Positions 1-25,632 of a stretch of DNA of 32,000 bases are shown here, one piece after another (the stretch's first letter is position 1; every line of letters starts with the position of its first letter). A program made the translations under genes and the position numbers. The stretch comes from Sulfolobus acidocaldarius DSM 639 (GTDB lineage Archaea; Thermoproteota; Thermoprotei_A; Sulfolobales; Sulfolobaceae), in contig NC_007181.1 of the NCBI RefSeq assembly GCF_000012285.1, positions 1,440,001 through 1,472,000 on the forward strand, written 5' to 3'. Below the pieces are notes generated by a model that saw only the letters and a list, made by a program, of their open reading frames with translations, was not told the DNA's origin and made no database searches.

Positions 1-1
1 T

Positions 2-871
2 AAGGTACTATTTCCAAATGGAACGATTAAACAGTACAATGATTCTAGTCTTACAGTAGTGCTAAACAATCAAGCGGCATCAGTATTAGGTTCTGGGCAA
101 ATCTCAGTAACAAATACTCAAGTTTTAAACGTAACCAAGTTAACGGGAAATATAGAGAATGCAATAGTTTACTTATCAGGAAATGTACAGCCTGGTTTTA
201 CATTCTTCACTGGGTATATGAATGGGACATTGCTAAGCAATATCGCAATTCCAATTATAAACGATCTACCCACTGGCCTGGTTTTACCATTAATCACATT
301 GCTCTCAAGTACAATAGACGGACTATCTAATTTAGGAACCCTCTTATCTTCCTTAATAGAAGGAGTATCAGGATTGGGAAATTCTGCAGTGTCTTCTTTA
401 CTACCTCCAATTATAATATCTGCAGAGAAGGTGACGGGTGTTAACATCATCTATTTAGCTGCAGTGACTCCTGAAATAATAACCTTAAAAGGCGTAGTAT
501 ACAATCCTACTTCGCAGTTACTATACATTAATTATACATATATCATGCTTCAGGAATACGATACATTGAGCGGTGTTGGTGGACCAACAACACTAGGGCA
601 AATAGTTGGTATGGTTCAAGTGCCTGTCAATATGTATGTTTACCCTGGTACATATCAAGACATAGATCTGAAGGTAGGGATACCATTGACCTTACCAAAT
701 GTCTTGCTAAATAATTTACTATCAAATAGTGACAATCAAGGACCAGCAACTCTGACCTTGTCTTCAACTTATAGAGTATTAACCATAGAGACTTATACAA
801 ACATGGGGCTCATATCGTCAGGTCAGTTTATATTACCTTCTACTCAGCCACCTGTTTCGCTCCCAGATTAG
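2..871 (+). CDS. 5'-truncated ORF for an N/S/T/L-rich secreted or surface protein (last 289 codons in window)
   Basis: The reading frame is open from base 2. No stop precedes the GTG at 59 used by the ORF track, so the gene probably starts left of the window. Composition matches the downstream cluster, with N-x-S/T sequons (NVT, NGT, NYT) and a hydrophobic LSS/LGN-rich central segment. Confidence 0.55.
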   Translation, partial: KVLFPNGTIKQYNDSSLTVVLNNQAASVLGSGQISVTNTQVLNVTKLTGNIENAIVYLSGNVQPGFTFFTGYMNGTLLSNIAIPIINDLPTGLVLPLITLLSSTIDGLSNLGTLLSSLIEGVSGLGNSAVSSLLPPIIISAEKVTGVNIIYLAAVTPEIITLKGVVYNPTSQLLYINYTYIMLQEYDTLSGVGGPTTLGQIVGMVQVPVNMYVYPGTYQDIDLKVGIPLTLPNVLLNNLLSNSDNQGPATLTLSSTYRVLTIETYTNMGLISSGQFILPSTQPPVSLPD

Positions 872-944
872 TTTTTAAACAAACTATTTTTTCTTTTTCT
901 CCATTCAATGGCTTTCATTCTTCCTCTCTATTCGTCCTCTATAT

Positions 945-1511
945 CTATGGGCTTTGAGGTACAGTTGTATAAGTATATACTATTCTAAACCAATAGTTGT
1001 TTACTTTATATATAATCCACACTACTAAATCTTGGTTACTAGAGACTCCATTATATATTATTGTAAATGGAGAATTAAAGGAGACCGTGTAGACCTGTAG
1101 CTTAGAAGGGGAATAAATTACTGACCCTCCTACGTCATATATACTCCCTGATATAGTGGTGGTGTTAGCTCGTTTATTGTTTGTCAAGTAAACTTGATAA
1201 TTCAGTGAAGAAGTAGACGGTGTAACTACTCCTACACTGGGCTGTAGTGATGCAGGTATTGTAAACGCTACTACCTCAATACTACCGTTAACGCTGGGGT
1301 TATAAACTTCTGCCACTACACTTCCTACAGTGTTATTTATAAGTAGAGGTCCCACAGACAGAGAAGTGGAACCAGCTATTTGGTTAGCTTGTTGCTGTGA
1401 TATTGAAAATACCTCTTTTGGTAAGAAGTAAGCGAATGAGAATGCTAGAAGTGCAATCCCAATACCTACTACAGCAATAATCAGTATTAATTGAGGAATT
1501 ACTGACTCCAT
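945..1511 (-). CDS. 188-aa protein with N-terminal hydrophobic helix and beta-rich sequon-bearing domain (pilin-like architecture); paralog of the N-domain of the 1593..2975 product
   Basis: The N-terminus is MESVIPQLILIIAVVGIGIALLAF. An in-frame stop lies two codons upstream of the ATG, so there is no longer leader. The C-terminal motif IIYNGVSSNQDLVVWIIYKVNNYWFRIVYTY aligns with IIYANVKPGQIIVLWFLLYYNGNWYRLGYGY in the neighbour. An A/T-rich TATA-like element sits about 27 nt upstream on the minus strand. Confidence 0.7.
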   Translation of the reverse strand: MESVIPQLILIIAVVGIGIALLAFSFAYFLPKEVFSISQQQANQIAGSTSLSVGPLLINNTVGSVVAEVYNPSVNGSIEVVAFTIPASLQPSVGVVTPSTSSLNYQVYLTNNKRANTTTISGSIYDVGGSVIYSPSKLQVYTVSFNSPFTIIYNGVSSNQDLVVWIIYKVNNYWFRIVYTYTTVPQSP

Positions 1512-1592
1512 TGTTTAACAACTATAATCGACAATATATAAGTTTTTCAGAGGAATCGAAAGATATAAAACTGTCTTATACAATTTTAGAAT
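1512..1592. promoter_or_regulatory. 81-bp divergent promoter region between the two paralogous genes
   Basis: ATATAAAA at 1563-1570 lies about 27 nt before the GTG at 1593. The minus-strand TTATATAT (within 1531-1541) lies about 27 nt before the ATG at 1511. This spacing is typical of leaderless Sulfolobales transcripts. Confidence 0.45.
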
Positions 1593-2975
1593 GTGCCTAC
1601 TGTAGTAGCTACATTCATATTAGTCGTAGCTGTATTCTTGATATCTATCATAGTCTTCTTCTATTACGCAGGATACTTGGGTTTACTTTCTCCATCAATC
1701 TTAAACCAAGAGTACCTTATAGGTCTATCTAAATCTATACAGATAAGTGTCTCTAGTGTAGCATTTAAAGGTGTCTCACCAAACCTGATTAGCTTTAACG
1801 TTAGCTATTTAATCACAGTTAACTCTCCTACTAAAGTCCTCACAGTTGTCCCCTTTGTGACCTTAAATTCGCCTAGCATATTTTACTCTCAACCATCAAC
1901 AAAACAAAATGCAATAATTGCAAAAGCCAACTCAACAGGATATATTCCCCTTAAAAACTTCAAGATAAACGGACCTGTATATATACCACAACAGAGTATG
2001 CTGTTGGGAAATTTGGTCAATATTTATGCGTATAACGTGTCTTCCAACTCCTCCTACATAATTTACGCGAATGTGAAGCCTGGTCAAATAATAGTCCTTT
2101 GGTTCCTACTATACTATAATGGGAACTGGTACAGACTAGGTTATGGTTATTTGGACCCTAATCCGTCATTAGCTATAAATACTATTTCAGGTACAGGTAA
2201 ATATAAGGTAACTGCTCCACAAGCTCCTCCACCTTTAATAGATGCGAATCAAAAGGGGTTCCAATTTGGCATGTGGTTTTCTCCCATAATAAACTCATCG
2301 ATTCAAGTTCCATTACTTAATATATCATTTAACTCTGTAAGTAGATCTGGAGGCAGCGGTTCTCAGAGAACTACTTATGTGTTAACATTTTATGTGAAGA
2401 ATAGTAATTTGTATGTAGTATCTTATAGTTCATCAGAACCTCAAAAATTTATTACTACTAATATTGCACAGCTTAATGTTAGGCAATATTATTTCCTCAA
2501 TTTTAGTTTTGGGTCTCAAGTTGAGAAGTCTAAGAATGTTATTATAGATTTATACAATTCCACAAGCCTAATAAAAGGAGGAATATTAATTCCCCTTGGT
2601 CAAGGTTCAGCTAACAGTCGCTACTTTAACGTAACTTTTGGATCTACTAAGTACTCTGAGTTTGCGATATTTCAAGCGTTTTTCGTTACTACCCAAGACA
2701 AAACAGCTTTACAAGACCAACAAGTTCCATCGGCGTTCTACAATGTGTCTAATCAGGTTCTAAATAACGGTTATCTCTATAACAACACTCAAGTATTGTA
2801 TTCTATAATCTACAATAGCGAAAATGAACTTTACGCCATAGGATACTGGTATTTTGTAAACCCCTCTTTCCCAATTCCCAAACAAATTTCAGGCTTATTG
2901 TGGTATTGGAACTCTGAAAAACTGCATAACTCAACTATACCTGAGACTTCACCAAATACTTATATTGCAGTATAG
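1593..2975 (+). CDS. 460-aa surface protein: N-terminal hydrophobic helix, pilin-like domain (about aa 1-190), Pro-rich linker, and a roughly 260-aa beta-rich C-terminal domain (possible lectin/jelly-roll)
   Basis: GTG start. An in-frame stop at 1587 leaves no room for a longer N-terminus. The protein begins (M)PTVVATFILVVAVFLISIIVFFYY. The N-domain is paralogous to the 945..1511 product, followed by the linker APQAPPPL. Many N-x-S/T sequons. Confidence 0.75.
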   Translation: MPTVVATFILVVAVFLISIIVFFYYAGYLGLLSPSILNQEYLIGLSKSIQISVSSVAFKGVSPNLISFNVSYLITVNSPTKVLTVVPFVTLNSPSIFYSQPSTKQNAIIAKANSTGYIPLKNFKINGPVYIPQQSMLLGNLVNIYAYNVSSNSSYIIYANVKPGQIIVLWFLLYYNGNWYRLGYGYLDPNPSLAINTISGTGKYKVTAPQAPPPLIDANQKGFQFGMWFSPIINSSIQVPLLNISFNSVSRSGGSGSQRTTYVLTFYVKNSNLYVVSYSSSEPQKFITTNIAQLNVRQYYFLNFSFGSQVEKSKNVIIDLYNSTSLIKGGILIPLGQGSANSRYFNVTFGSTKYSEFAIFQAFFVTTQDKTALQDQQVPSAFYNVSNQVLNNGYLYNNTQVLYSIIYNSENELYAIGYWYFVNPSFPIPKQISGLLWYWNSEKLHNSTIPETSPNTYIAV

Positions 2976-3154
2976 TCAAAATCTTATTGCGAATACATAG
3001 ACCCTGTTTTTAAAGACTTCATATAATTTCCCTCTAATCTAGTTTTGCTTTCAAAAATCTTTAAATAAAGTCAAGGAGTTGAGTAATACTACTTATAGTT
3101 AAATATATTACATTTCCGACCATAAGTGAGTAAAAAGATACATTTATTAAATAG

Positions 3155-3421
3155 ATGTCTATAATAATATGCAGGAGAATGAAAAGAAGGAAATTAAGTA
3201 TTGGTTTATCAATCCCTATAGGTCTCTTGATATTTCTAGTTATATTAGCTTTAGTTCTGGTTCCAGCTATAATTATATTTAATTCTTCTTCCTCATATCT
3301 TTCCCAATCTAACATAGCTAACTCTGGTCAGCAACAACTTAAAGAAAAAGAACAACAGCAAATACTTAGAGGAAATCCTAATATCTTCTATAATTCAACA
3401 AAAAATCCACCCCAACTCTAG
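3155..3421 (+). CDS. N-terminal fragment (signal/anchor helix plus first conserved block) of a frameshift-split surface-protein gene; likely true start is the ATG at 3179
   Basis: MKRRKLSIGLSIPIGLLIFLVILALVLVPAIIIF is followed by SYLSQSN...QQQ...GNPNIFYNST. This aligns with the N-termini of the 4832..6238 and 6235..6705 products. The ORF ends 13 nt after an A6 run. The TATA-like TTTATTAAATA at 3143-3153 is about 29 nt before 3179. Confidence 0.65.
   Translation: MSIIICRRMKRRKLSIGLSIPIGLLIFLVILALVLVPAIIIFNSSSSYLSQSNIANSGQQQLKEKEQQQILRGNPNIFYNSTKNPPQL
3400..3406 (+). promoter_or_regulatory. A-AAA-AAT heptamer in correct X-XXY-YYZ phase at the junction of the two ORF halves (candidate -1 frameshift site, or site of a homopolymer indel)
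   Basis: Zero-frame codons are aca-aaa-aat. The -1 frame is open from 3394 and continues to 4839. The zero frame stops at 3419-3421. Confidence 0.4.
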
Positions 3422-3498
3422 TCTTTATTTATAATAACATACCTGTCCCCTTCAACATCTCCACTGTATATTACTTTAATGGGACAATATGGTTACCT

Positions 3499-4839
3499 GT
3501 GACAAAGAATATAGTTGTAGGGTATAACGTAACACTTCCATTACCAAATTATGTGTTCAATAAACCTCTGCTGATAGTAAGTGCACTATCTAATTTCTAT
3601 TTCCTATATCCTAACACTTCTGTCACAGCAATCAGGGTATCAGGACCTGCAGGTAAAATACCAGTTTACATTACAGCGTTTGCCATAAATGGGTCAAGGT
3701 ATTTACCATTAAACGTTAACATGACACTTGGACAGACAAATCCCTTTACCTCTCCTCAAATATTCTACCTGACACCAGGTACCTATCAGCTGACTGACAA
3801 CAATATTAGAGTGTTTTTACAGCAATACGGTCTAACCGCACAGTTTATGAACTGGTCTTATGTGGGATCAGGTCAGTTAACAAGCGCTACAAACCCGTCT
3901 ACCACGTTCACTGTAACTGGTCCACTCGTGATAACTGCAGTATATAAGACATTTACGCAGACCTATAAAGTGCTCATAGTGCCAAAGAACATACCGCTTG
4001 GGACAAGTTTGAGCTACACTATTACAGGAGATTGTACAGTTTATTATCTAAGCTGTGAAAGCACTACAGTCACTCTGACCTCTCTGAATAATACTATTCC
4101 AGTTTTTGTAGACAATAGATTATATCAAGTCGGACAAAACGGCATAACATTAAGTTTATCTTACGGTTACCACATTATTCAGTTCCCATCAAATTACAAT
4201 ATAACCTTTAACTATACTGGTGGTTATTTCACAAAACCAGTATTAGGTGGTCAAATTACCACATATACATTTCAAAGCCTATCATCTAGTTCTAGCAATA
4301 TATCAGTGCTTGGTAGCACCGAGATATTTCTACAAGGTAGCGGTACAGTTCAGGGTGTGTTTAGTAATAGCTCCACGTATTACTTAGTTACAGTTTACAA
4401 TAATTTTTCATTTCCTGGTAACGTTTATAATTATACTAATAATACACCAGTTTTAGGCGATATAGCGGCACAACTACTAGGCGTAAATGTATCTACTACA
4501 GGTCAAAATATCGTATTGGGTCCAACTCAGAACTATGTACCTGAGAAAATTTATTTTATGGCAAACACTAGTCTTTATATATACATTGACTACTTGCATA
4601 ATATTAATGGTACATTTAATATAAGTTATTATGATTATTATAGTAAAACACAAAATTTTACAGCACTATTATCAAATCCAAATAACGTTACGGTCTACAA
4701 CGTTTCTAGTTATTTAAGTGGACCTGAAATCTATTATTTTAATATAAATCAGTTAAATTATGGGACAATTCAGGTAATATCTCCACTTATAATAATTAAC
4801 AATCAGGTGTGGGAATACGGTGGTGTGGAAAATGGCTAA
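3499..4839 (+). CDS. C-terminal main body (frame open from 3394) of the frameshift-split surface-protein gene; a fused product from 3179 would be about 553 aa
   Basis: The frame is open upstream of the track's GTG back to 3394. The upstream residues STPTLVFIYNNIPVPFNISTVYYFNGTIW continue the alignment with paralogs (LFILYSNGTFVPNAS in E, PTIMVFKQSGNYT in F). The protein is sequon-dense and carries the motif NWSYVGSGQLTSATNPSTTFTVTGPLVITAVYK, also seen in the next gene. Confidence 0.7.
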   Translation: MTKNIVVGYNVTLPLPNYVFNKPLLIVSALSNFYFLYPNTSVTAIRVSGPAGKIPVYITAFAINGSRYLPLNVNMTLGQTNPFTSPQIFYLTPGTYQLTDNNIRVFLQQYGLTAQFMNWSYVGSGQLTSATNPSTTFTVTGPLVITAVYKTFTQTYKVLIVPKNIPLGTSLSYTITGDCTVYYLSCESTTVTLTSLNNTIPVFVDNRLYQVGQNGITLSLSYGYHIIQFPSNYNITFNYTGGYFTKPVLGGQITTYTFQSLSSSSSNISVLGSTEIFLQGSGTVQGVFSNSSTYYLVTVYNNFSFPGNVYNYTNNTPVLGDIAAQLLGVNVSTTGQNIVLGPTQNYVPEKIYFMANTSLYIYIDYLHNINGTFNISYYDYYSKTQNFTALLSNPNNVTVYNVSSYLSGPEIYYFNINQLNYGTIQVISPLIIINNQVWEYGGVENG

Positions 4840-6238
4840 GGCTATATCTGCTCCCATTACTTTTGCCATAATTCTAGTCATTGGCATATTGCTTCTAATT
4901 CCTTTCCTTACGTACGTAACATACTTATCTCAAAGTAACCAGATCTCTCAAGCTCAATTCAATAATTATATCTATCTGAAGAACTTGGAACAACAGAGGG
5001 CAGTATCCGGTAGACCAGGCGTGTACTATAATGGTAGCTCTCTATTTATCCTATATTCCAACGGAACTTTCGTGCCCAATGCGAGTATAGTTGTTGTAGG
5101 AATTCTCTACCTTAACAATTTGGGTGTTTGGCAGAATATAACGAGCCTTAAGTATCCTATAATTCTAAATAGGACTGGTTCAGTTAATCTGCCATCAAAT
5201 GTAGCTGGTAAACCTATAATACTGGTGACTTCACTGGGTAATATATTCTTTTTACAACCTGGGTCAAGTATTGGTCCGTACTCTAACTCCATTGGTAAAG
5301 GTGGAGTAACTATAATATCCCAGATTTACACTTCATCTCAAATATATTCAACCTCAATTAATATTACAACCAACATAAATGGAAAATTTAGCAATTACAC
5401 TACTCCAATAACTTTTCCCAACCAGACAGGGACATTTCAAGTAAAGGCACGAGAGTACATCTACTATATTAACAGTAAGACGGGTAAAGTTATCACGGGA
5501 GTATTTAGTAATTGGCAAATCCTAGGTTCAGCAACAGTAAATAGTACAACAACTCAGGGAATTACAGTTACATTACAAGGGAAGCCTGTCATTTTAATAG
5601 CTAATTATTCCCAGCTAGTCCAGAGTGTAAATCTTTCCATTAAGACTAATGCCAACTTTAGTATAGTGGTTAATATAAATGGTGTGAATTATACGGTAAA
5701 TAATCATGCATTATCAGCTACTGTACCAGCAGGATATGTCAACTTTACAGTTTATACACTGCAGGGAAATGATACTAGTTCAATGAGTAGCGGAATTATT
5801 AAACATTATAAGTTTAACACAATTAATTATACCGGAAATACTTATGTAACTAACTCTCAGCTACTATTCCTTCCCCCTAATTCATTGCCTTATGTGCAAA
5901 TAAACTATGTCAACGACTATAACTATTATAAAGTGTTTCTTTATGACTATTACGACTCCCCACCTCCTCCAGGCGGAGGATTAGTTGTAATTTTAAATGG
6001 TACGGAGTATAATTATAATAATACATATGGATATTGGATAATAGGGGGTAACTATAGTTTTGTTCCTACTGGGATATTTAATGGTTCTATGAGCTACGAA
6101 GCAAAAGAAGTGACTATTGCTGGAAATAACGGGATACTGAACTATTATTTTCCTGACATACCAAGCTACATAATTATTAATCAACCAATGACCATAACAG
6201 TCTACTACGACTATGTGATAAAATGGGTGCCAATATGA
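4832..6238 (+). CDS. 468-aa sequon-dense surface protein with a pilin-type (class III-like) signal peptide
   Basis: MAKA|ISAPITFAIILVIGILLLIPF fits the K/R-G/A|hydrophobic-S/T pattern. A GGTGGTG SD-like motif lies 6-14 nt upstream. There is an 8-nt overlap (ATGGCTAA) with the upstream gene. I hand-counted about 20 N-x-S/T sequons. The track start at 4820 (GTG) is an alternative. Confidence 0.8.
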   Translation: MAKAISAPITFAIILVIGILLLIPFLTYVTYLSQSNQISQAQFNNYIYLKNLEQQRAVSGRPGVYYNGSSLFILYSNGTFVPNASIVVVGILYLNNLGVWQNITSLKYPIILNRTGSVNLPSNVAGKPIILVTSLGNIFFLQPGSSIGPYSNSIGKGGVTIISQIYTSSQIYSTSINITTNINGKFSNYTTPITFPNQTGTFQVKAREYIYYINSKTGKVITGVFSNWQILGSATVNSTTTQGITVTLQGKPVILIANYSQLVQSVNLSIKTNANFSIVVNINGVNYTVNNHALSATVPAGYVNFTVYTLQGNDTSSMSSGIIKHYKFNTINYTGNTYVTNSQLLFLPPNSLPYVQINYVNDYNYYKVFLYDYYDSPPPPGGGLVVILNGTEYNYNNTYGYWIIGGNYSFVPTGIFNGSMSYEAKEVTIAGNNGILNYYFPDIPSYIIINQPMTITVYYDYVIKWVPI

Positions 6239-6705
6239 GGGCGATTTCAGACTATATAGGGTTTGCAATAGCGCTTATCATAATTGTAGTATTGTTAATA
6301 CCACTTTTTCTTGTACTTACAAACTATTCTTCACCCTCAACTCAACAGATCAACTATTATCCTATAATAAGTAATCAGGTTAATGGCGGTGGTGTACCGA
6401 TTTACTATAATGCAACTCCTAAGGGTCCGACTATAATGGTGTTCAAACAAAGCGGAAATTACACATTGTTTGGTGTTTATTGTTTGAGTAACGGTAAAAT
6501 TTACAATATAACCCAATCAGTGGGGGTGATTACTATAAGTCCAAGTGGTAAAGTGACCAATACTGGAAAGTCTCTACCAGTCGCTATGGTATACAACTTT
6601 ACCGTTCCAGCTCAGTACTGGAACTATACTTTGATTTTACAGCTTAAGGCGTATCAGACAACCGTGTATGCAACGTTATATCCTAACACTACAGCCTTGG
6701 TCTAA
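6235..6705 (+). CDS. 156-aa small pilin-like protein with a class III-like signal peptide
   Basis: MRA|ISDYIGFAIALIIIVVLLIPLF. ATGA start/stop overlap with the upstream gene and GGGTG 5 nt upstream. The block GGVPIYYNATPKGPTIMVF is paralogous to D and E. The track start at 6223 is an alternative. Confidence 0.75.
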   Translation: MRAISDYIGFAIALIIIVVLLIPLFLVLTNYSSPSTQQINYYPIISNQVNGGGVPIYYNATPKGPTIMVFKQSGNYTLFGVYCLSNGKIYNITQSVGVITISPSGKVTNTGKSLPVAMVYNFTVPAQYWNYTLILQLKAYQTTVYATLYPNTTALV

Positions 6706-6820
6706 ATTATTAATACTTTTACACGAAAGTTCAATACTTGGTAACAAACAAAGGAAACAAAATACGGGGAGAATTTAAAAAGAAGATTTTTGGCTTTCTT
6801 TACTAACCTTTTATAACCTT

Positions 6821-12063: not shown

Positions 12064-13305
12064 ATGGAAAGTAGTAGTGTATCAAAAATGAGTATAATTG
12101 GCGCGCCAAGGTCTTCTAGGAAGGTTCTTACACTTACTGTGAAGGGTCTCCCCCCTGACGTTTTGACGAAAGTGGTAGTTAATGGATTACCATACTACCT
12201 TTCAAATGAGACTGTCACTTTTATAGAACCTATAATTTGGAAAGCCTCAAAGGTCATAAAGAAGAACAAGGTTTATGAACCTATCCAAAGCGAAGGTAGT
12301 GCTTCCCCTCCTGATAATGCTGAAATAGTTTATAGGGAGACCAGCACAATCCCTGAGTACTGGTTAGAGAAGAAAATTGGTGGGAAATATAAAATAAGCA
12401 AAATTTTGGGTAGTGGTGGAGCAGGCTATGTTATGCTGGCTGAGGATAAGCAGGCTAATAAGTTAGCAGTAAAGATCTACAGGCTCGAGAGCGAAAACCA
12501 GGGCGAGACTGCTCTATTCAGAGATTCCATGATAGAGTTAGCAAACAATATAAACAAGATATCTAAGTTAGACCACCCCAAACTTATAAAATTCTATGAT
12601 GTGAATGTGAATCTAGAAGTTATCAAGAGTTATTTTAAAGGCATAACTTATTTGTATCTTAAGGATCCCCCCTATGTTGCAATGGAGTATATGGGCAATG
12701 GAACTGTTAAGGACTTACTTTTGAGGGATGAATACTTCTACTCTGTGAGGTGGAAGAAACTTGTATACAGAATAATATTCCAGGTTGCGAGGGGACTATT
12801 GTACCTCCACTCGGAGGGTTATGTCCATTTAGATGTAAAACCCTCAAATATATTCATTGAGTCTGTAAAAGGTGACGATATAAGGGTTAAACTTGGAGAT
12901 TTAGATTCAATGAAAAGAGTTGGTCAATCGATACTTGAAATTACACCAGAGTATGCGCCACCTGAGCAATTGCAGGCTCACTATACTAAGGAGGGTGCTA
13001 GACCCACAATGGACATATTCTCTCTGGGAATAACATTTTATGAGCTACTGACAAGGAAGAAAAGGCAACCTAATTATCTTGTATCTGCTCTGGAAGCTCT
13101 ATCTAAGGGTAATCATGACGAGGCTAAGAAATTAATTAATGATGATATAATTTACCTTTCAACTTGGAATATTGATTCGATTGATGATGATAAGATTAAG
13201 GACTTGATCCAACGAATGGTAAGTCCAGACCCTAAGTCTAGACCTACAGCAAAGGAAATAGTGTATGAACTTGATGACTTATTACAAAGAGCAGAGAAGA
13301 AATGA
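12064..13305 (+). CDS. Hanks-type (eukaryotic-like) Ser/Thr protein kinase with a roughly 100-aa N-terminal extension
   Basis: GSGGAGYV (G-loop), AVKIY (VAIK Lys), HLDVKPSNIF (catalytic loop), LGDLDS (DFG position), APPE (APE position). Confidence 0.85.
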   Translation: MESSSVSKMSIIGAPRSSRKVLTLTVKGLPPDVLTKVVVNGLPYYLSNETVTFIEPIIWKASKVIKKNKVYEPIQSEGSASPPDNAEIVYRETSTIPEYWLEKKIGGKYKISKILGSGGAGYVMLAEDKQANKLAVKIYRLESENQGETALFRDSMIELANNINKISKLDHPKLIKFYDVNVNLEVIKSYFKGITYLYLKDPPYVAMEYMGNGTVKDLLLRDEYFYSVRWKKLVYRIIFQVARGLLYLHSEGYVHLDVKPSNIFIESVKGDDIRVKLGDLDSMKRVGQSILEITPEYAPPEQLQAHYTKEGARPTMDIFSLGITFYELLTRKKRQPNYLVSALEALSKGNHDEAKKLINDDIIYLSTWNIDSIDDDKIKDLIQRMVSPDPKSRPTAKEIVYELDDLLQRAEKK

Positions 13306-21917: not shown

Positions 21918-22256
21918 TCTATTCTTGAGGGATTTAAAATCCTTCTACACAACACGTTTAAACTTGATATTCGTTAAAAAGTATAAGTATAAAGAAGGGA
22001 ATACTCTAATAACTTATCAGAGATGACATATAATATAACAGGGAATCTGCGAAAATTTTTAAAATAACTAGAAGATAAAGTCTAAGTTTTTAGTCTTTGA
22101 ATTAATTAATTTAAATATTCATTTATGGATTCTCCAGCTGTATAAAATATATTAATTTTTGGATACAACCTTTTTTACATAGGATCTTTGTCACAAAAAG
22201 AGAATTTTGGGTTGGATAAGATTAAAATTTTTACAAACCCAATACACTCTTTAGTA

Positions 22257-23306
22257 ATGAAAGCCATTATACTTCACGGCGGTCAGGGGACTAGACTAAG
22301 ACCTTTAACACACACAGGACCAAAGCAACTCATCAAGATCGCCGGCAAACCCATATCCTTATGGGGCGTTTTATCACTGAGGGATATAGGCATAAGAGAC
22401 TTTGGGATTATACTTGGGAATAACCACCCAGAAAAGGTGATCGAGTATTATGGTGATGGATCAAAATTCGGCATAAAGGTTACGTATATATATCAGGGAG
22501 AGGCAAGAGGTCTAGCTGATGCTATTTACAAGGTAAAAGACTTTGTAAAAGACGATAATTTCATAGTATATTTAGGCGATAACGTGGTTCTTGAGGGGTT
22601 AGACAAACTCGTTAGTTTCAACAGTTCAGCATCAATACTCCTTGCAAGGGTGGATAATCCTAACCGTTTTGGTGTAGCTGTTATAAACAACGACAATAAG
22701 GTCGTGAGACTGGTCGAGAAACCTAAGGAGAGGATATCTGATTTAGCTCTTGTAGGTGTTTATACGTTTACCCCTGAAATTTTTCATGCAATTGAAAAGA
22801 TAAAGCCGAGTTGGAGAGGAGAACTTGAGATAACTGATGCAATTCAGGAACTTATTAATGAAGGTAAAGAGGTGTCCTACTCAATCATCAAGGGGTGGTG
22901 GAAGGACACTGGAACACCCGATGATCTATTGGAGGCAAATATGATCTTACTCGACAGGTACCTGGAAACTGTGAATAAAGGCAAAGTCGTCGACTCGAGA
23001 GTGGAGGGTAGAGTGGTAATAGACGAGGGAAGTGTAGTGGAGAAGTCTGTTATCAGAGGACCAGTGTATGTAGGGAAGAACTGTAAAATAAGGGGTTCTC
23101 ACATACTGCCCTTTACATCCATTGGCGATAATGTAGTGATCGAGGACTCAGAAGTGTCAAACTCGTTAATAATGGACGATGTTCAAATTAAGGGACTATC
23201 CATAACTCAATCATTAATTGGGAGTGGGGCAAGAGTCCTAAAGAAGGAGAATTTACCAACTGGTAGGATATTCATTATAGGTGAGAATTCTTTAGTGGAG
23301 GTATAG
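22257..23306 (+). CDS. rmlA: Glucose-1-phosphate thymidylyltransferase, long archaeal form with C-terminal left-handed beta-helix
   Basis: MKAIILHGGQGTRLRPLTHTGPKQLI nucleotidyltransferase motif. The C-terminus has hexapeptide-like repeats (VVDSRVEGRVVIDEGSVVEKSVIRGPVYVG...). The track's TTG at 22188 adds 23 non-conserved residues and is less likely. Confidence 0.85.
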   Translation: MKAIILHGGQGTRLRPLTHTGPKQLIKIAGKPISLWGVLSLRDIGIRDFGIILGNNHPEKVIEYYGDGSKFGIKVTYIYQGEARGLADAIYKVKDFVKDDNFIVYLGDNVVLEGLDKLVSFNSSASILLARVDNPNRFGVAVINNDNKVVRLVEKPKERISDLALVGVYTFTPEIFHAIEKIKPSWRGELEITDAIQELINEGKEVSYSIIKGWWKDTGTPDDLLEANMILLDRYLETVNKGKVVDSRVEGRVVIDEGSVVEKSVIRGPVYVGKNCKIRGSHILPFTSIGDNVVIEDSEVSNSLIMDDVQIKGLSITQSLIGSGARVLKKENLPTGRIFIIGENSLVEV

Positions 23307-23316
23307 GTGAGCTAAA

Positions 23317-24252
23317 TTGATCATGGTCACTGGTGGGGCTGGTTTTATTGGTTCTTCTTTTTCACGTGAAGTGAAAAAACCTGTGATCTTTGATCTATTA
23401 ACATATGCAGGGAGGTTAGAGAACCTAATAGGTGTAGACCATATATTTGTCAAAGGAGATATACGAAATTACAGTCAGTTGGAGGATACTGTAAAGAAAT
23501 ACGATATAAAAATTATTGTAAATTTTTCAGCAGAGACTCATGTTGATAGGTCAATAAATAACGCCCATATATTCTTAGACACTAATGTCTATGGAGTAGT
23601 AAACTTGTTAGAAATATGCAGAAGGTATGATACCCGCCTAGTTCAAATCTCAACTGACGAAGTTTACGGAGAACAGGAGAATGCTACAGAGGATTTTCCG
23701 CTGAGACCCTCTTCCCCTTACTCTGCATCTAAAGCTTCCGCCGACATGTTCATTTTAGCTTATGTTCGTACCTATGGAGTTGATGCAATAATTATTAGAC
23801 CATCAAACAATTACGGACCTAGACAACACATCGAGAAGCTAATTCCCAAAACCATTGTCAGGACACTGTTGGGACTTGAAATACCAATCTACGGTAAAGG
23901 TGATCAGGAAAGGGATTGGATATATGTTGAAGACACTGCAAAGGTTATCGCTCAATTAGTTGAAACAGGAAAGAAAGGTGAAATTTACAATGTACCAGGG
24001 GGTCAGAGGACAACTAATATAAAACTTGTCGAAATGATAGGTGAGTTAATGGGGAGGGAACCTAAGATAAAATTTGTTAAGGATAGACCTGGTCATGACA
24101 AAAAATACTCAATGGTTTCCACAAAATTGAGTTACAAAGTTACCCCCTTAAAGGAGGGACTGAGCAAGACAATTAAATGGTACCTGGAAAATGAGTGGTG
24201 GTGGAGACCACTTTTAAATGATGAATACTTTTTGAGGGAAACGTCATGGTGA
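23317..24252 (+). CDS. rmlB: dTDP-glucose 4,6-dehydratase
   Basis: VTGGAGFIGS, STDEVYG, YSASKASAD (SDR Y-x3-K). GGTGA SD upstream. ATG at 23323 is an alternative start. Confidence 0.9.
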   Translation: MIMVTGGAGFIGSSFSREVKKPVIFDLLTYAGRLENLIGVDHIFVKGDIRNYSQLEDTVKKYDIKIIVNFSAETHVDRSINNAHIFLDTNVYGVVNLLEICRRYDTRLVQISTDEVYGEQENATEDFPLRPSSPYSASKASADMFILAYVRTYGVDAIIIRPSNNYGPRQHIEKLIPKTIVRTLLGLEIPIYGKGDQERDWIYVEDTAKVIAQLVETGKKGEIYNVPGGQRTTNIKLVEMIGELMGREPKIKFVKDRPGHDKKYSMVSTKLSYKVTPLKEGLSKTIKWYLENEWWWRPLLNDEYFLRETSW

Positions 24253-25094
24253 CTCTAATAATCGGTGGCTCTGGACAACTAGGTCAGGAACTTGGAAAGT
24301 TAATAAAGGACAGTATACTCACCTTTAGCTCAAGACCAATTGAAGGTGGTATTTACTTAGATACACGGGACTACATAAGGGTAGAAGACTTGATCATGAA
24401 GACTAAACCTGAAGTTATCATAAACACATCTGCAATTACAGATGTGGACAAGTGCGAAGTGGATAGAATCAATGCGCATAGTGTAAATTCTTTGGCTGTG
24501 AAGCACATGGTAAGAGCGGCTTCAATAACTAAGTCATACTTCGTTCAAATATCTACAGATTATGTATTTGACGGAAACAGGGGGAACTATAATGAAGACG
24601 ATTTACCAAACCCTTTGAATTACTATGGGCTCACTAAGTTACTTGGAGAGACGTATTCTTTATCTTACGACTACTCACTTGTAATAAGGACTTCTGGGAT
24701 CTATGGGAGTAACAAGGAGAATTTTCCTCTTTATGTCTTGAAGTCACTGGAGAAGGGGAGTAAGGTAAGGGCAGTTTGGGATATGTATTACTCTCCTATT
24801 AATGTTAAACAACTAGCTGAGGCTATAGTACAGCTGTTACCTTTAAGGAAAACGGGTATTTTGAATATTGCTGGGGATAGGATATCAAGATATGACTTAG
24901 CCCTAAAAATTGCTAAAATGTCCTCTCTAAATGAAAACTTGATAGAAGCTGCTAGTTACGAAGAAATGTCGTGGAGGGCAAAAAGACCCAAGGACTCTTC
25001 CCTGGACTCGTCAACTGTTAAGAAATATGTGAGTGTCAATCTGTCCTTAGAGGAGGGATTAAGGAGGTTGATAAACGATGTTCAGAATAAATGA
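24246..25094 (+). CDS. rmlD: dTDP-4-dehydrorhamnose reductase
   Basis: IIGGSGQLG, STDYVFDG, YGLTKLLGE. It overlaps rmlB by 7 nt. Confidence 0.85.
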   Translation: MVTLIIGGSGQLGQELGKLIKDSILTFSSRPIEGGIYLDTRDYIRVEDLIMKTKPEVIINTSAITDVDKCEVDRINAHSVNSLAVKHMVRAASITKSYFVQISTDYVFDGNRGNYNEDDLPNPLNYYGLTKLLGETYSLSYDYSLVIRTSGIYGSNKENFPLYVLKSLEKGSKVRAVWDMYYSPINVKQLAEAIVQLLPLRKTGILNIAGDRISRYDLALKIAKMSSLNENLIEAASYEEMSWRAKRPKDSSLDSSTVKKYVSVNLSLEEGLRRLINDVQNK

Positions 25095-25632
25095 GAAAGA
25101 TATTCCTGATGTTCTTGTTATAGAGACCGATAAATATGAAGATGAGAGGGGGTTATTGATGGAGCTATTCAAGAGGTCTAACTTCATTTTCATCGATAGT
25201 ATAGTCCAAGTTAACTACTCTTACTCTAAGAAAGGGGTAATAAGGGGGTTACATTACCAACTAAAGCCCAAAGAACAGGGTAAACTAGTTACAGTGATCG
25301 ATGGTAAGATATACGATGTAGCTGTAGACATTAGAAGAGGATCACCGTGGTATGGAAAGTTTGTTAGCGAGATCTTAGTCCCAGGGAAGATGTTGTGGAT
25401 ACCGCCAGGTTTTGCTCACGGTTTTCAAGCTCTGGAGAACTCTCATGTTGTTTACTTCATCTCTGGAAACGATTTTTCTCCTCCCAGTGAGGCAGGAATA
25501 AGATATGACGACCCAGATATAGGAGTGAACTGGCCAATACAGAACCCTATCGTATCACAAAAGGACTTAAGGTGGCCTAGCCTTAAGGAGTGTAAAAACA
25601 ACTTTGAATATGTACCTCACAACAAGAAGTAA
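25078..25632 (+). CDS. rmlC: dTDP-4-dehydrorhamnose 3,5-epimerase
   Basis: Cupin with DERG, RGLHYQ and PPGFAHGF. It overlaps rmlD by 17 nt. Confidence 0.9.
   Translation: MFRINEKDIPDVLVIETDKYEDERGLLMELFKRSNFIFIDSIVQVNYSYSKKGVIRGLHYQLKPKEQGKLVTVIDGKIYDVAVDIRRGSPWYGKFVSEILVPGKMLWIPPGFAHGFQALENSHVVYFISGNDFSPPSEAGIRYDDPDIGVNWPIQNPIVSQKDLRWPSLKECKNNFEYVPHNKK

What the first reader, a model, noticed from the sequence alone, without database searches (positions are those of the whole stretch)
1..6705. Cluster of six paralogous, sequon-dense, helix-anchored (pilin-like) surface proteins with no assembly machinery in view
Seen in the sequence: every ORF here is Asn/Ser/Thr/Tyr-rich and packed with N-x-S/T sequons (about 20 by hand count in the 468-aa product). 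Each complete ORF opens with a 20-25 aa hydrophobic helix. Two paralog families exist. Family 1 is the 945..1511 product plus the N-domain of the 1593..2975 product. Family 2 is the N-terminal blocks of the 3179.., 4832.. and 6235.. products (YLSQSN / QQ / G-x-P-x-x-YYN-x-[ST] / hydrophobic beta strand). The last three genes are translationally coupled (ATGGCTAA and ATGA overlaps with GGTG motifs). The two large members also share a beta-sandwich-like motif (NW..GSG/A...S..T.TVT..GP/KPV...A.Y). Established knowledge: Sulfolobales build archaella, Ups and Aap pili and the bindosome from class III signal peptide proteins processed by PibD, and also make heavily glycosylated thread filaments. Inference: the mix of one small and several very large pilin-like proteins resembles a minor-pilin, tip-adhesin or novel filament module rather than any of the named loci. 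No PilB/VirB11-type ATPase or PilC-like platform gene lies within 25 kb downstream.
Basis: partly seen in the sequence, partly recalled or inferred. Interest (0 to 1): 0.8.

Follow-up and report, generated by a model that had tools for sequence, protein, structure and literature searches.

The report
Pilin-like surface gene cluster, known virus-entry locus
This is a real, Sulfolobales-wide cluster of glycosylated pilin-like surface proteins. It is the counterpart of the S. solfataricus sso3138-sso3141 genes needed for rod-shaped virus SIRV2 to enter cells, and it most likely supplies accessory or tip subunits for the adhesive (Aap) type IV pilus.

Summary
Window 1-6705 (Sulfolobus acidocaldarius, saci_1681-1686) encodes six helix-anchored proteins poor in charged residues, in two paralog families. 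No pilus ATPase or platform gene lies within about 10 kb left or 25 kb right.

Three corrections are needed:
- saci_1682 (945-1511) is on the minus strand.
- The "3179.." gene is frameshifted in this window.
- Sequon enrichment beyond composition holds only for the three downstream genes.

The cluster is not an orphan. The 468-aa protein is 54% identical to SSO3139. The five-gene core (A-E) keeps its order in every complete related locus. It corresponds to sso3138-3141 plus a divergent neighbour, the locus whose disruption blocks SIRV2 entry.

Families C, D and E carry a [KR][GA]|[LIQ][ST] class III signal motif. Families A and B are almost leaderless. Predicted structures show a long N-terminal helix followed by beta domains. 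Protein A best matches the lectin-bearing minor pilin PilC of Streptococcus sanguinis.

A published deletion of saci_1676-1686 gives hyper-archaellated cells. Their filament preparation listed archaella and threads but no Aap pili, which resembles an aapF deletion.

Best reading (confidence about 0.45): accessory or tip pilins of the Aap pilus. Nearly identical strains differ almost only by disruptive changes inside these genes.

The parts
2..871 (+). C-terminal 289 aa of saci_1681 (598 aa). Accessory family-2 pilin-like protein whose N-terminus (KKA|ISP... plus helix) lies left of the window.
   Evidence: Identical to P0097/Q4J890. N-terminal module is homologous to families C, D and E (hhalign 87.6-96.5%). 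At least 10 different truncation or deletion breakpoints fall in this part among S. acidocaldarius genomes.
945..1511 (-). saci_1682, family B (188 aa; SSO3141 ortholog). Leaderless pilin-like protein with few sequons.
   Evidence: 40-50% identical to the 184-195-aa gene that opens the operon in other Sulfolobales. Homologous to the N-domain of A. Begins MESVIPQ... with no [KR][GA] motif.
1512..1592 (.). 81-bp divergent intergenic region between saci_1682 and saci_1683, with A/T-rich TATA-like boxes about 25-30 nt upstream of each start.
   Evidence: Read directly from the sequence. Promoter function is inferred, not tested.
1593..2975 (+). saci_1683, family A (460 aa). Family-1 pilin-like module (1593-2153) plus a C-terminal ConA/LamG-like lectin-fold domain (about 2259-2951).
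   Evidence: AF2 model pLDDT 72.5. Foldseek top hits are PilC minor pilin of S. sanguinis, 7oa8/7oa7, E 1e-5, followed by neurexin LNS, galectins and other ConA-like folds. Orthologs of 437-467 aa are divergently transcribed in other species.
3179..3421 (+). N-terminal fragment (80 aa) of saci_1684, family C (SSO3140 ortholog). It ends at a premature TAG because of a frameshift.
   Evidence: Other strains have an intact 553/561-aa gene.
3400..3413 (+). Frameshift site: A6 tract (3400-3405) and C4 tract (3410-3413). A-AAA-AAT heptamer in the zero frame at 3400-3406.
   Evidence: Window and L001 have A6+C4 (out of frame). L002 and L004 have A6+C5 (in frame). L003 has A7+C4 (in frame). The heptamer is the same as the S. 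solfataricus fucA1 -1 frameshift site. No downstream RNA structure is predicted.
3403..4839 (+). C-terminal part (478 codons in the -1 frame) of family C, including an InlB B-repeat-like domain at 3844-3951.
   Evidence: It has 22 sequons against 10.1 +/- 2.7 expected. 37-50% identical to the C proteins of 7 species.
4832..6238 (+). saci_1685, family D (468 aa), ortholog of SSO3139. Class III signal (MAKA|IS), family-2 module (4832-5281), then beta-sandwich domains including an InlB B-repeat-like domain (5501-5731).
   Evidence: 54% identity, E 3.7e-140, to the 90% cluster that contains SSO3139. AF2 pLDDT 83.5. All 56 full-length family members carry the [KR][GA][LIV][ST..] motif, and 10 sequon positions are conserved in at least 79% of them.
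6235..6705 (+). saci_1686, family E (156 aa; SSO3138 ortholog). Consists of the minimal family-2 pilin-like module with a class III signal (MRA|IS; orthologs have MKA|QS).
   Evidence: Published primer 11194 maps to 6703-6732, which fixes this gene as saci_1686.

Best explanation
The cluster encodes a conserved set of type-IV-pilin-like surface proteins that work with a pilus machine encoded elsewhere, most probably the Aap adhesive pilus (AapE ATPase / AapF platform).

Proposed mechanism:
- Families C, D and E, plus the accessory saci_1681, are inserted in the membrane by their N-terminal helix.
- The prepilin peptidase PibD trims them at [KR][GA]|[LIQ][ST], and they are heavily N-glycosylated.
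- They then form a low-abundance minor-pilin complex at the start of the fibre. That position becomes the distal tip of the finished pilus.
- Families A and B, plus saci_1680, are pilin-like but start at or within about 3 residues of the position matching the cleavage site. They either join the complex without processing or stay membrane-anchored at the pilus base.
- A contributes a ConA/LamG-type lectin domain. C and D contribute strings of Ig-like / InlB-B-repeat-like domains. Together these provide adhesion.
- In Saccharolobus the same surface would be what the rudivirus SIRV2 docks to.

Shown here: orthology to sso3138-3141, conserved operon structure, signal motifs, predicted folds, absence of linked machinery, and the strain-level disruptions.

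Inferred: PibD cleavage, glycosylation, location at the Aap tip, and any role in priming assembly.
For: **Pilin-like nature**
- Class III motifs occur in all C, D and E orthologs examined.
- Seven of 57 D-family members hit Pfam Pilin_N weakly.
- The AF2 models have a long helix followed by beta domains.
- Protein A's best PDB match is the modular minor pilin PilC of a bacterial type IV pilus.

**Extracellular and glycosylated**
- Sequons are enriched about 2-fold or more over composition (z about 4).
- Ten sequon positions are conserved across the D family.
- K+R+D+E content is only 5-8%.

**One functional unit**
- The five-gene order and overlapping stop/start codons recur in S. tokodaii, M. 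sedula, S. islandicus, S. solfataricus, A. manzaensis, Stygiolobus, HS-7 and two metagenomic lineages, with unrelated flanking genes.

**Link to Aap**
- In S. solfataricus, SIRV2 resistance maps only to sso3139/3140 and to the aapE/aapF homologs sso2387/2386.
- SIRV2 binds pilus tips.
- Aap pili adhere by their tip, whose composition is unknown.
- Deleting saci_1676-1686, which contains all of window 1-6702, gives a hyper-archaellated strain. Its filament preparation is described as archaella plus threads, while a parallel strain gave Aap, archaella and threads.
- Hyper-archaellation is the known phenotype of aapF deletion.
- That deletion strain makes abundant archaella, so the cluster is not needed for archaellum assembly.
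Against: - No ATPase or platform gene is linked to the cluster in any locus, so the partner machine is inferred only from genetics in other work.
- Gene C is frameshifted in this DSM 639-type sequence. Strains of that lineage nevertheless make Aap pili that were solved by cryoEM. So C, at least, is not needed to build the fibre.
- The published deletion also removes saci_1676-1679: two paralogous cytoplasmic proteins, Trm10 and an S9 peptidase. The phenotype therefore cannot be assigned to the pilin-like genes.
- The paper does not explicitly state that Aap pili are absent.
- Families A and B lack the charged leader that PibD substrates have.
- No pilin HMM reaches its threshold.
- The original authors proposed a membrane-bound complex acting as a secondary receptor rather than a pilus component.
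Confidence: 0.45

Rival explanations
1. A stand-alone, membrane-anchored surface complex, comparable to a bindosome or short pseudopilus, that is not part of any long filament. It sits in or under the S-layer and acts as adhesin and secondary virus receptor, as first proposed for sso3139-3141.
For: [quoted passage not shown]
- No machinery is linked to the cluster.
- Families A and B lack a cleavable leader, so they may stay in the membrane.
- Aap fibres form in strains whose gene C is broken.
Against: - Class III signal peptides in C, D and E imply PibD processing. In known cases that processing precedes extraction from the membrane into an oligomer.
- It does not explain why the saci_1676-1686 deletion looks like an aap mutant.
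- It does not explain why aapE/F and sso3139/40 mutants share a single phenotype.
Confidence: 0.25
2. Subunits of a separate, still undescribed thin filament or short fibre. E or B would be the repeating subunit and A, C and D accessory adhesins. It would be assembled by borrowing one of the three known type IV machines.
For:
- The families have no sequence relative among solved filament subunits.
- The families occur only in Sulfolobales, with just 54 hits among 1.84 billion representative proteins.
Against: - Extensive EM and cryoEM of S. acidocaldarius reports four filament types, all with assigned subunits.
- Frequent natural disruption of three of the genes argues against an indispensable major subunit set.
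- Filaments from MW001-derived strains, which carry this cluster, showed no unassigned class.
Confidence: 0.1
3. A split function. C, D and E are minor pilins. The leaderless A and B act like ArlF/ArlG of the archaellum, as uncleaved pilin-like proteins forming a pseudo-periplasmic anchor. The lectin domain of A would bind S-layer N-glycans and brace the Aap machine during retraction.
For: - A and B form a family distinct from C, D and E, with no detectable relation beyond the helix.
- In most species they have at most 3 residues before the helix.
- B has almost no sequons.
- A has a ConA-like lectin fold.
- The aap operon is described as having no ArlF/G counterpart (own knowledge). S-layer glycan binding by ArlF has been proposed.
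Against: - Neither A nor B hits the ArlF/ArlG or archaellin HMMs.
- Some A orthologs do carry MK[AG]|LS leaders, which suggests they can be PibD substrates.
- The idea rests entirely on analogy.
Confidence: 0.12

Closest known systems
sso3138-sso3141 'cell surface' cluster of Saccharolobus solfataricus P2 (SIRV2 entry; Deng et al. 2014, J Virol 88:10264)
   Same: - Direct orthology: D is 54% identical to SSO3139.
- The P2 locus has the same genes in the same order, 187/550/478/166 aa plus a divergent 467-aa gene.
- Like the REY15A homologs, the S. acidocaldarius genes are often disrupted.
   Different: - In S. acidocaldarius the A and B genes have swapped position and orientation.
- A second paralogous pair (saci_1680/1681) has been added.
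- Gene C is frameshifted in this sequence.
- A role in virus entry has not been tested in S. acidocaldarius.
- The primary paper could not be read here.
Minor-pilin / tip-initiation complexes of bacterial type IV filaments (GspH-I-J-K; PilV-W-X-FimU with PilY1/PilC; S. sanguinis PilA-PilB-PilC)
   Same: - A set of four or five low-abundance pilin-like proteins with N-terminal helices, encoded together, some carrying large adhesin modules.
- Protein A resembles PilC of S. sanguinis structurally, as a pilin module plus a ConA-like lectin module.
   Different: - No sequence homology to the bacterial proteins.
- Archaeal class III signals.
- Two members have no leader.
- The genes are encoded away from the ATPase and platform.
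- Tip location and a priming role have not been shown.
Aap pilus system of S. acidocaldarius (aapA, aapB, aapX, aapE, aapF)
   Same: - Same organism.
- Same genetic pathway for SIRV2 entry in S. solfataricus.
- The deletion phenotype (hyper-archaellation) matches that of aapF deletion.
   Different: - The cluster lies far from the aap locus, judging by locus-tag numbers (saci_168x against saci_2317).
- No sequence similarity to any solved filament subunit.
- The solved Aap fibre contains only AapB.
ArlF/ArlG of the archaellum (uncleaved archaellin-like stator proteins)
   Same: Like families A and B, they have an N-terminal membrane helix without PibD processing, followed by a beta-sandwich domain on the outer face of the membrane.
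   Different: No HMM or sequence match. A and B are specific to this cluster, and A carries an additional lectin-fold domain.
Thread filament subunit Saci_0406 (donor-strand complemented, heavily glycosylated)
   Same: A heavily N-glycosylated surface protein of S. acidocaldarius made of beta domains.
   Different: The solved thread subunit did not appear in PDB sequence searches with any of the seven proteins. Threads are still made by the saci_1676-1686 deletion strain.

Membership tests
Archaeal type IV pilin-like proteins (class III signal peptide, PibD substrates) | Short positively charged leader ending in [KR][GA], followed directly by about 20 hydrophobic residues | tested here: met
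   Met for families C, D and E and for saci_1681: every ortholog from 8 species except saci_1684 (C), which reads KLS|IG, and all 56 full-length D-family proteins.
Archaeal type IV pilin-like proteins (class III signal peptide, PibD substrates) | The same leader motif in families A and B (saci_1683, saci_1682) and in saci_1680 | tested here: not met
   Most begin M[PDEGN][STN].. with no K/R and at most 3 residues before the helix. Only a few A orthologs (A. manzaensis, P0122, P0123) start MK[AG]|LS.
Archaeal type IV pilin-like proteins (class III signal peptide, PibD substrates) | Long N-terminal alpha-helix followed by a beta-rich globular domain | tested here: met
   AF2 models: D has helix 6-58 and is then all-beta (pLDDT 83.5). 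A has helix 2-48 followed by beta domains (pLDDT 72.5). B, C and E were not modelled.
Archaeal type IV pilin-like proteins (class III signal peptide, PibD substrates) | Match to a curated pilin model (Pfam PF07790 Pilin_N or NCBIfam equivalents) above threshold | tested here: not met
   The window proteins gave no hit at E <= 1. Only 7 of 57 D-family members hit PF07790, below threshold (best E 0.0023).
Archaeal type IV pilin-like proteins (class III signal peptide, PibD substrates) | Cleavage by PibD and incorporation into a filament | not testable with these tools
   Needs biochemistry, proteomics or EM.
Type IV pilus locus (pilins linked to ATPase and platform) | PilB/ArlI-type ATPase and PilC/ArlJ-type platform gene in the neighbourhood | tested here: not met
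   No T2SSE or T2SSF domain in the 32-kb window or in the 10 kb to its left. None within 8-10 kb in the related loci examined.
sso3138-sso3141 SIRV2-entry cluster | Orthology of the component proteins and conserved gene order | tested here: met
   D hits the 90% cluster holding SSO3139 at E 3.7e-140, 54% identity. A-E are 31-55% identical to their counterparts in 7 species, in the same order.
sso3138-sso3141 SIRV2-entry cluster | Requirement for virus entry | not testable with these tools
   Reported for S. solfataricus only. No infection data exist for S. acidocaldarius.
Known S. acidocaldarius filament subunits (AapB, ArlB, thread Saci_0406) and thermopsin | Sequence similarity to the solved subunits or to the Thermopsin family | tested here: not met
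   PDB sequence searches with two profiles and four single proteins returned no filament subunit at E <= 10. Pfam gave no Thermopsin hit, although UniRef names the 446-aa fragment 'Thermopsin'.
ConA-like lectin / LamG fold (C-terminal domain of A) | Jelly-roll fold match to LamG, galectin or ConA-like domains | tested here: met
   Foldseek probability 1.00 to PilC lectin-module pilins, neurexin LNS domains, galectins and pentraxin. No Pfam LamG hit. Sugar binding was not tested.
InlB B-repeat (Pfam PF18998 Flg_new_2)-like domain in C and D | Profile-level similarity to B-repeat proteins | tested here: inconclusive
   Residues 224-300 of the D-family profile hit bacterial proteins carrying 6-17 PF18998 repeats (E 8e-20 to 1e-5). 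PF18998 itself does not hit any D-family member at E <= 0.1.

The most novel reading that the evidence does not exclude
The cluster would be the archaeal counterpart of the bacterial tip-initiation complex. Three PibD-processed minor pilins (C, D, E) and two naturally leaderless pilin-like proteins (A, B) would be encoded away from the machine. Together they would cap the Aap pilus, carry its lectin adhesin and form the long-sought tip receptor for rudiviruses. The complex would also be switched on and off in natural populations by homopolymer slippage and small rearrangements, as a form of receptor variation under virus pressure in an archaeon.
Probability: 0.25. Interest if true: 0.8.

Novelty: new member of a known kind. 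Interest (0 to 1): 0.6.

Why it matters
The composition of the Aap pilus tip is an open question. So is the identity of the structure that SIRV2 grips. Archaeal minor pilins are also barely characterised.

This analysis links three separate published observations to one conserved set of pilin-like genes:
- SIRV2 resistance mapped to sso3139/3140.
- Tip binding by the virus and tip adhesion by Aap pili.
- The unexplained hyper-archaellation of a saci_1676-1686 deletion strain.

That gives a concrete hypothesis that is cheap to test in a genetically tractable organism.

The strain comparison also suggests that these genes are the main target of disruptive mutation in otherwise clonal S. acidocaldarius populations. 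This is relevant to virus-host dynamics and to the choice of laboratory strain, since the DSM 639 lineage carries a broken gene C.

Tried and rejected
**Searches that found nothing**
- Pfam, NCBIfam and PHROGs scans of all seven proteins gave no significant family.
- PDB sequence searches with two profiles and four single proteins returned no relative.
- Megablast of the region against plasmids gave no match, so the region is not a plasmid-borne element.

**Searches that were uninformative or unavailable**
- Foldseek of the D model against PDB and BFVD returned only generic tandem beta-sandwich matches with TM 0.1-0.2: Gram-positive pilins, adhesins and phage fibres.
- The word-indexed homolog search with the 156-aa protein found only S. 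acidocaldarius copies.
- The genome-contig scan recovered only 8 loci, too few for a phyletic co-occurrence test with aap genes.
- The primary paper by Deng et al. 2014 is not held.

**Ideas considered and set aside**
- Programmed -1 frameshifting as a rescue of gene C. The fucA1-type heptamer is present, but the region downstream folds at 0 kcal/mol. Intact alleles differ by simple 1-nt tract changes. Mutation is therefore the simpler reading.
- The 'Thermopsin' name given by UniRef, which Pfam does not support.
- Thread, Ups or archaellum subunit identity. There is no similarity, and archaella and threads persist in the deletion strain.

Full report
**Source and gene content**

The window is from Sulfolobus acidocaldarius of the DSM 639 type. 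The 188-aa protein at 945-1511 occurs unchanged in dozens of S. acidocaldarius assemblies. The products match GenBank AAY80990-AAY80995 of DSM 639.

A published primer maps to 6703-6732. This fixes the last gene of the finding as saci_1686, so the genes are saci_1681 to saci_1686, with saci_1680 just left of the window.

The ORFs are:
- 2-871 (+): C-terminal 289 aa of the 598-aa saci_1681.
- 945-1511 (-): 188 aa.
- 1593-2975 (+): 460 aa.
- 3179-3421 and 3403-4839 (+): two fragments of one gene.
- 4832-6238 (+): 468 aa.
- 6235-6705 (+): 156 aa.

**Check of the observation**

The description is essentially right.
- All complete products begin with a hydrophobic helix.
- They are rich in Asn, Ser, Thr and Tyr. 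They contain only 5-8% K+R+D+E, against 20-30% for cytoplasmic neighbours.
- The 468-aa product has exactly 20 N-x-S/T sequons.
- Shuffling each protein shows that sequons exceed composition by about four standard deviations in three products. The large fragment of the frameshifted gene has 22 against 10.1 +/- 2.7. The 468-aa protein has 20 against 8.9 +/- 2.6. The 156-aa protein has 7 against 2.0 +/- 1.2.
- The excess is about two standard deviations in the 460-aa protein. There is none in the 188-aa protein or the saci_1681 fragment.
- The ATGGCTAA and ATGA overlaps and the GGTG motifs are present.
- No type IV ATPase or platform gene exists in the window. The remainder is housekeeping: a kinase, transporters, dehydrogenases, the rml genes and a solute-binding protein.
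- None exists in the 10 kb to the left either.

The 188-aa gene is on the opposite strand. The '3179..' gene is interrupted by a frameshift.

**Two protein families**

BLAST and profile-profile comparison confirm two families.
- Family 1 comprises the 188-aa protein (B), the first ~187 residues of the 460-aa protein (A) and saci_1680. A~B scores 98.1% and B~saci_1680 98.6%.
- Family 2 comprises the 553-aa (C), 468-aa (D) and 156-aa (E) proteins and the N-terminus of saci_1681. C~D scores 99.9% (E 3e-34), C~E 96.3%, D~E 96.9% and D~saci_1681 96.5%.
- The two families show no relation beyond the helix.

A D-family profile searched against 1.84 billion representative proteins found only 54 hits at E <= 1e-3. 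Most of these were D, C and E proteins, some of them fragments, and apparent C-D fusions. The remainder included five bacterial surface proteins that matched D residues 199-300. Four of those five carry 6-17 Pfam PF18998 (divergent InlB B-repeat) units. PF18998 itself does not hit the D family directly.

**Pilin-like features**

- Every C, D and E ortholog examined carries a [KR][GA]|[LIVQ][ST..] motif just before the helix. This includes all 56 full-length D-family proteins and saci_1681. The one exception is saci_1684 (C) itself, which reads KLS|IG. The motif is the class III (PibD-type) pattern; the PibD rule is from established knowledge, and no cleavage was tested.
- Family E has Gln at +1 (MKA|QS).
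- Families A and B usually have no leader. They begin MPS.., MES.. or MDN.. and run straight into the helix. A few A orthologs begin MK[AG]|LS, and this aligns the usual start with the position of a mature N-terminus.
- Ten sequon positions are conserved in at least 79% of D proteins.
- AlphaFold2 with family alignments gives D (pLDDT 83.5) a helix at 6-58 followed by several beta-sandwich domains.
- It gives A (pLDDT 72.5) a helix at 2-48, a beta domain and a C-terminal jelly roll.
- The best PDB matches for A are the PilC minor pilin of Streptococcus sanguinis type IV pili (7oa8/7oa7, E 1e-5, probability 1.0), then LamG/LNS domains, galectins and other ConA-like lectin folds.
- The matches for D are only generic tandem Ig-like adhesins and Gram-positive pilins, with low TM scores.
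- No curated family model reaches threshold. Pfam Pilin_N appears weakly in 7 of 57 D proteins.

**Conservation**

- D has 73 relatives at 36-89% identity, nearly all labelled Sulfolobales (Sulfolobus, Saccharolobus, Sulfurisphaera, Metallosphaera, Acidianus, Stygiolobus, Sulfuracidifex and metagenomes) and none carrying a functional annotation.
- A five-gene module recurs in S. tokodaii, M. sedula, S. islandicus, S. solfataricus, A. manzaensis, Stygiolobus, HS-7 and two metagenomic lineages, with unrelated flanks. Its layout is A (437-467 aa, divergent) followed by B (183-195), C (527-555), D (457-510) and E (142-173).
- In S. acidocaldarius, A and B have exchanged position and orientation.
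- S. acidocaldarius has also gained an extra pair, saci_1680 (B-like) plus saci_1681 (E-like N-terminus with a large extension). A. manzaensis has a similar pair.
- No PilB-type ATPase lies near the module in any locus.

**Identity with a known locus**

The 90% cluster of the S. solfataricus relative of D (E 3.7e-140, 54% identity) contains 'Hypothetical protein SSO3139', AAK43237. The P2 locus shows B, C, D and E as 187, 550, 478 and 166 aa, which are sso3141 to sso3138.

According to papers citing Deng et al. 2014:
- Disruption of sso3139 or sso3140, or of the aapF/aapE homologs sso2386/2387, makes S. solfataricus resistant to SIRV2 by blocking entry.
- The sso3139-3141 products were described as uncharacterised membrane-associated cell-surface proteins, possibly a secondary receptor.
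- SIRV2 binds the tips of pilus-like filaments.
- In S. islandicus REY15A the homologs of sso3139 and sso3140 carry premature stops. The 301-aa REY15A protein in the D cluster agrees with this.

I could not read the primary paper.

**A published deletion covers the finding**

Gaines et al. 2024 built strain MW2106, a deletion of saci_1676-saci_1686 in MW001, and used it as a 'hyper-archaellated strain'.
- Their primers place the deletion from within saci_1676 to window position 6702. It therefore removes everything in the finding, plus saci_1676-1680.
- The agl3 mutant, grown in the same way, gave Aap, archaella and threads. Wild-type Aap data were taken from another strain.
- Deletion of aapF is known to give hyper-archaellated, hypermotile cells.

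So the only phenotype on record for this region resembles an Aap-deficient strain. Three caveats apply:
- The paper offers no explanation and does not state that Aap pili are absent.
- The deletion also removes Trm10 and an S9 peptidase.
- It removes two paralogous cytoplasmic proteins as well.

**Strain variation**

Four S. acidocaldarius genomes are identical over 20.5 kb apart from one SNP and one low-quality stretch containing an N in L003. Yet they differ by six structural changes, all inside cluster genes:
- Gene C: C5 to C4 in this window and in L001, which shifts the frame.
- Gene C: A6 to A7 in L003, which restores the frame on the C4 background.
- Gene A: an 8-bp tandem duplication (CCTTTAAT) at window 2240 in L001.
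- saci_1681: a 242-bp inversion (window 545-786; L002).
- saci_1681: a 419-bp deletion (window 269-687; L003).
- saci_1681: a 181-bp deletion (window 734-914; L004).

Across public assemblies, saci_1681 has at least ten distinct C-terminal breakpoints on an otherwise 100% identical background. D shows no length variants. In A. manzaensis, gene C is split in two.

If events fell uniformly, six out of six landing in about 38% of the sequence would have p of about 0.003. However, purifying selection on the housekeeping flanks alone could produce this bias. What is shown is therefore that the genes are dispensable and are lost repeatedly. It is not shown that they are hypermutable.

The population study of these strains did not flag this locus.

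**Most likely mechanism**

Taken together, the evidence fits a set of accessory pilins for the Aap pilus.
- C, D and E (and saci_1681) would be PibD-processed, glycosylated minor pilins. They would assemble first and therefore end up at the distal tip.
- A would supply a lectin-fold adhesin module.
- B and A, being born without a leader, would either enter the complex unprocessed or remain as a membrane anchor.
- SIRV2 would recognise this tip complex in Saccharolobus.

Shown here: orthology, operon conservation, signal motifs, predicted folds and lack of linked machinery. Taken from the literature: the genetic link to aapE/F, tip binding and the deletion phenotype. Inferred: cleavage, glycosylation, tip location and any priming role.

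The main objection is that gene C is broken in the DSM 639 lineage, which nevertheless makes Aap fibres. So C, at least, is an adhesin or receptor component rather than an assembly factor. I put this explanation at about 0.45.

**Rival explanations**

- A stand-alone membrane-anchored complex, which was the original proposal (0.25).
- A split role, with A and B acting like the ArlF/ArlG stator proteins (0.12).
- An undescribed separate fibre (0.10).

The archaellum is excluded as the partner because the deletion strain is hyper-archaellated. Threads also persist in that strain.

**Novelty**

The gene cluster is already known genetically, and at least one laboratory has deleted it. No paper in the library searched describes its products as a two-family, five-protein pilin-like set, identifies the lectin-module pilin, notes the leaderless members, or reports the strain-level disruptions.

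It is best filed as a new member of a known kind, namely type IV minor or accessory pilins. The membership is partial: the signal motif and fold criteria are met for C, D and E, while the leader criterion fails for A and B and the linkage criterion fails for the locus.

**Dead ends**

The A-AAA-AAT heptamer at 3400-3406 is identical to the fucA1 -1 frameshift site. It lacks any predicted downstream structure, so programmed frameshifting remains only a possibility.

Noticed in passing
window 3400-3413 (A6 tract 3400-3405, C4 tract 3410-3413): Gene C (saci_1684) is out of frame here and in L001 (A6+C4). It is in frame in L002 and L004 through C5, and in L003 through A7. These are two different 1-nt tract changes in otherwise identical strains. 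The zero-frame heptamer A-AAA-AAT equals the fucA1 -1 frameshift site. A -1 slip would give exactly the protein encoded by the A7 allele. No downstream RNA structure is predicted.
   Followed up: yes
window 2-871 (saci_1681 C-terminal third); L001-L004: This region is a hot spot of disruptive alleles. Four near-identical genomes carry a 242-bp inversion (545-786), a 419-bp deletion (269-687) and a 181-bp deletion (734-914). Public assemblies show at least 10 distinct truncation points, between residues 371 and 553, on a 100% identical background.
   Followed up: partly
window 2240 (saci_1683); L001: In strain L001 an 8-bp tandem duplication (CCTTTAAT) splits the 460-aa gene into ORFs of 234 and 217 aa. 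The 234-aa product is seen on 20 contigs.
   Followed up: partly
window 945-2975 compared with L005-L011, L020, L021: In S. acidocaldarius the A (460 aa) and B (188 aa) genes have swapped position and orientation relative to all other Sulfolobales examined. Elsewhere B opens the operon and A is divergent.
   Followed up: partly
P0165-P0168 (e.g. Acidianus brierleyi P0166, 1014 aa): In four 50%-identity clusters, C and D are called as one ORF of 1014-1034 aa, with D's class III motif and helix in the middle. This is probably read-through or a gene-calling artefact over the overlapping stop/start. A true fusion would put D on the wrong side of the membrane.
   Followed up: partly
L007 1786-2574, L008 1-569, L020 726-1735: Genes with Pfam CedA1 hits (DNA-import Ced system) lie 4-6 kb from the cluster in S. 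islandicus, S. solfataricus and one metagenomic lineage. They are not near it in S. acidocaldarius. This may be coincidence.
   Followed up: no
L001 15366-16001 and 17128-17805 (saci_1678, saci_1676; left of the window): Two paralogous, charged, apparently cytoplasmic proteins of unknown function flank trm10. They are removed by the published saci_1676-1686 deletion, so they are alternative candidates for the hyper-archaellation phenotype.
   Followed up: partly
window 12064-13305 (+): A eukaryotic-type Ser/Thr protein kinase (Pfam Pkinase, E 1e-38). Counting locus tags from saci_1686 gives saci_1693 or saci_1694. It may therefore be ArnD (Saci_1694), whose deletion causes hypermotility. This was not verified.
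   Followed up: partly
window 22188-25632 (+): A four-gene dTDP-rhamnose-type sugar nucleotide pathway: nucleotidyltransferase, 4,6-dehydratase, RmlD-like reductase and 3,5-epimerase.
   Followed up: no
window 25796-26929 (+): A solute-binding protein (SBP_bac_11) that also has a surface-protein composition: 9 sequons and 7.5% K+R+D+E. It is unrelated to the cluster.
   Followed up: no
P0086 (446-aa fragment, window 3499-4839): UniRef names this fragment 'Thermopsin', but no Thermopsin (PF05317) or other Pfam hit supports the name.
   Followed up: yes
L012 and L016 (Metallosphaera yellowstonensis MK1): Two separate D-family loci exist in one genome (50% and 39% identity to the query), so some species carry a second copy of the module.
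   Followed up: no
L009 6810-8011 (Acidianus manzaensis): The C ortholog is split into ORFs of 202 and 198 aa and lacks its N-terminal pilin module. This is another independent disruption of the SSO3140 family.
   Followed up: partly
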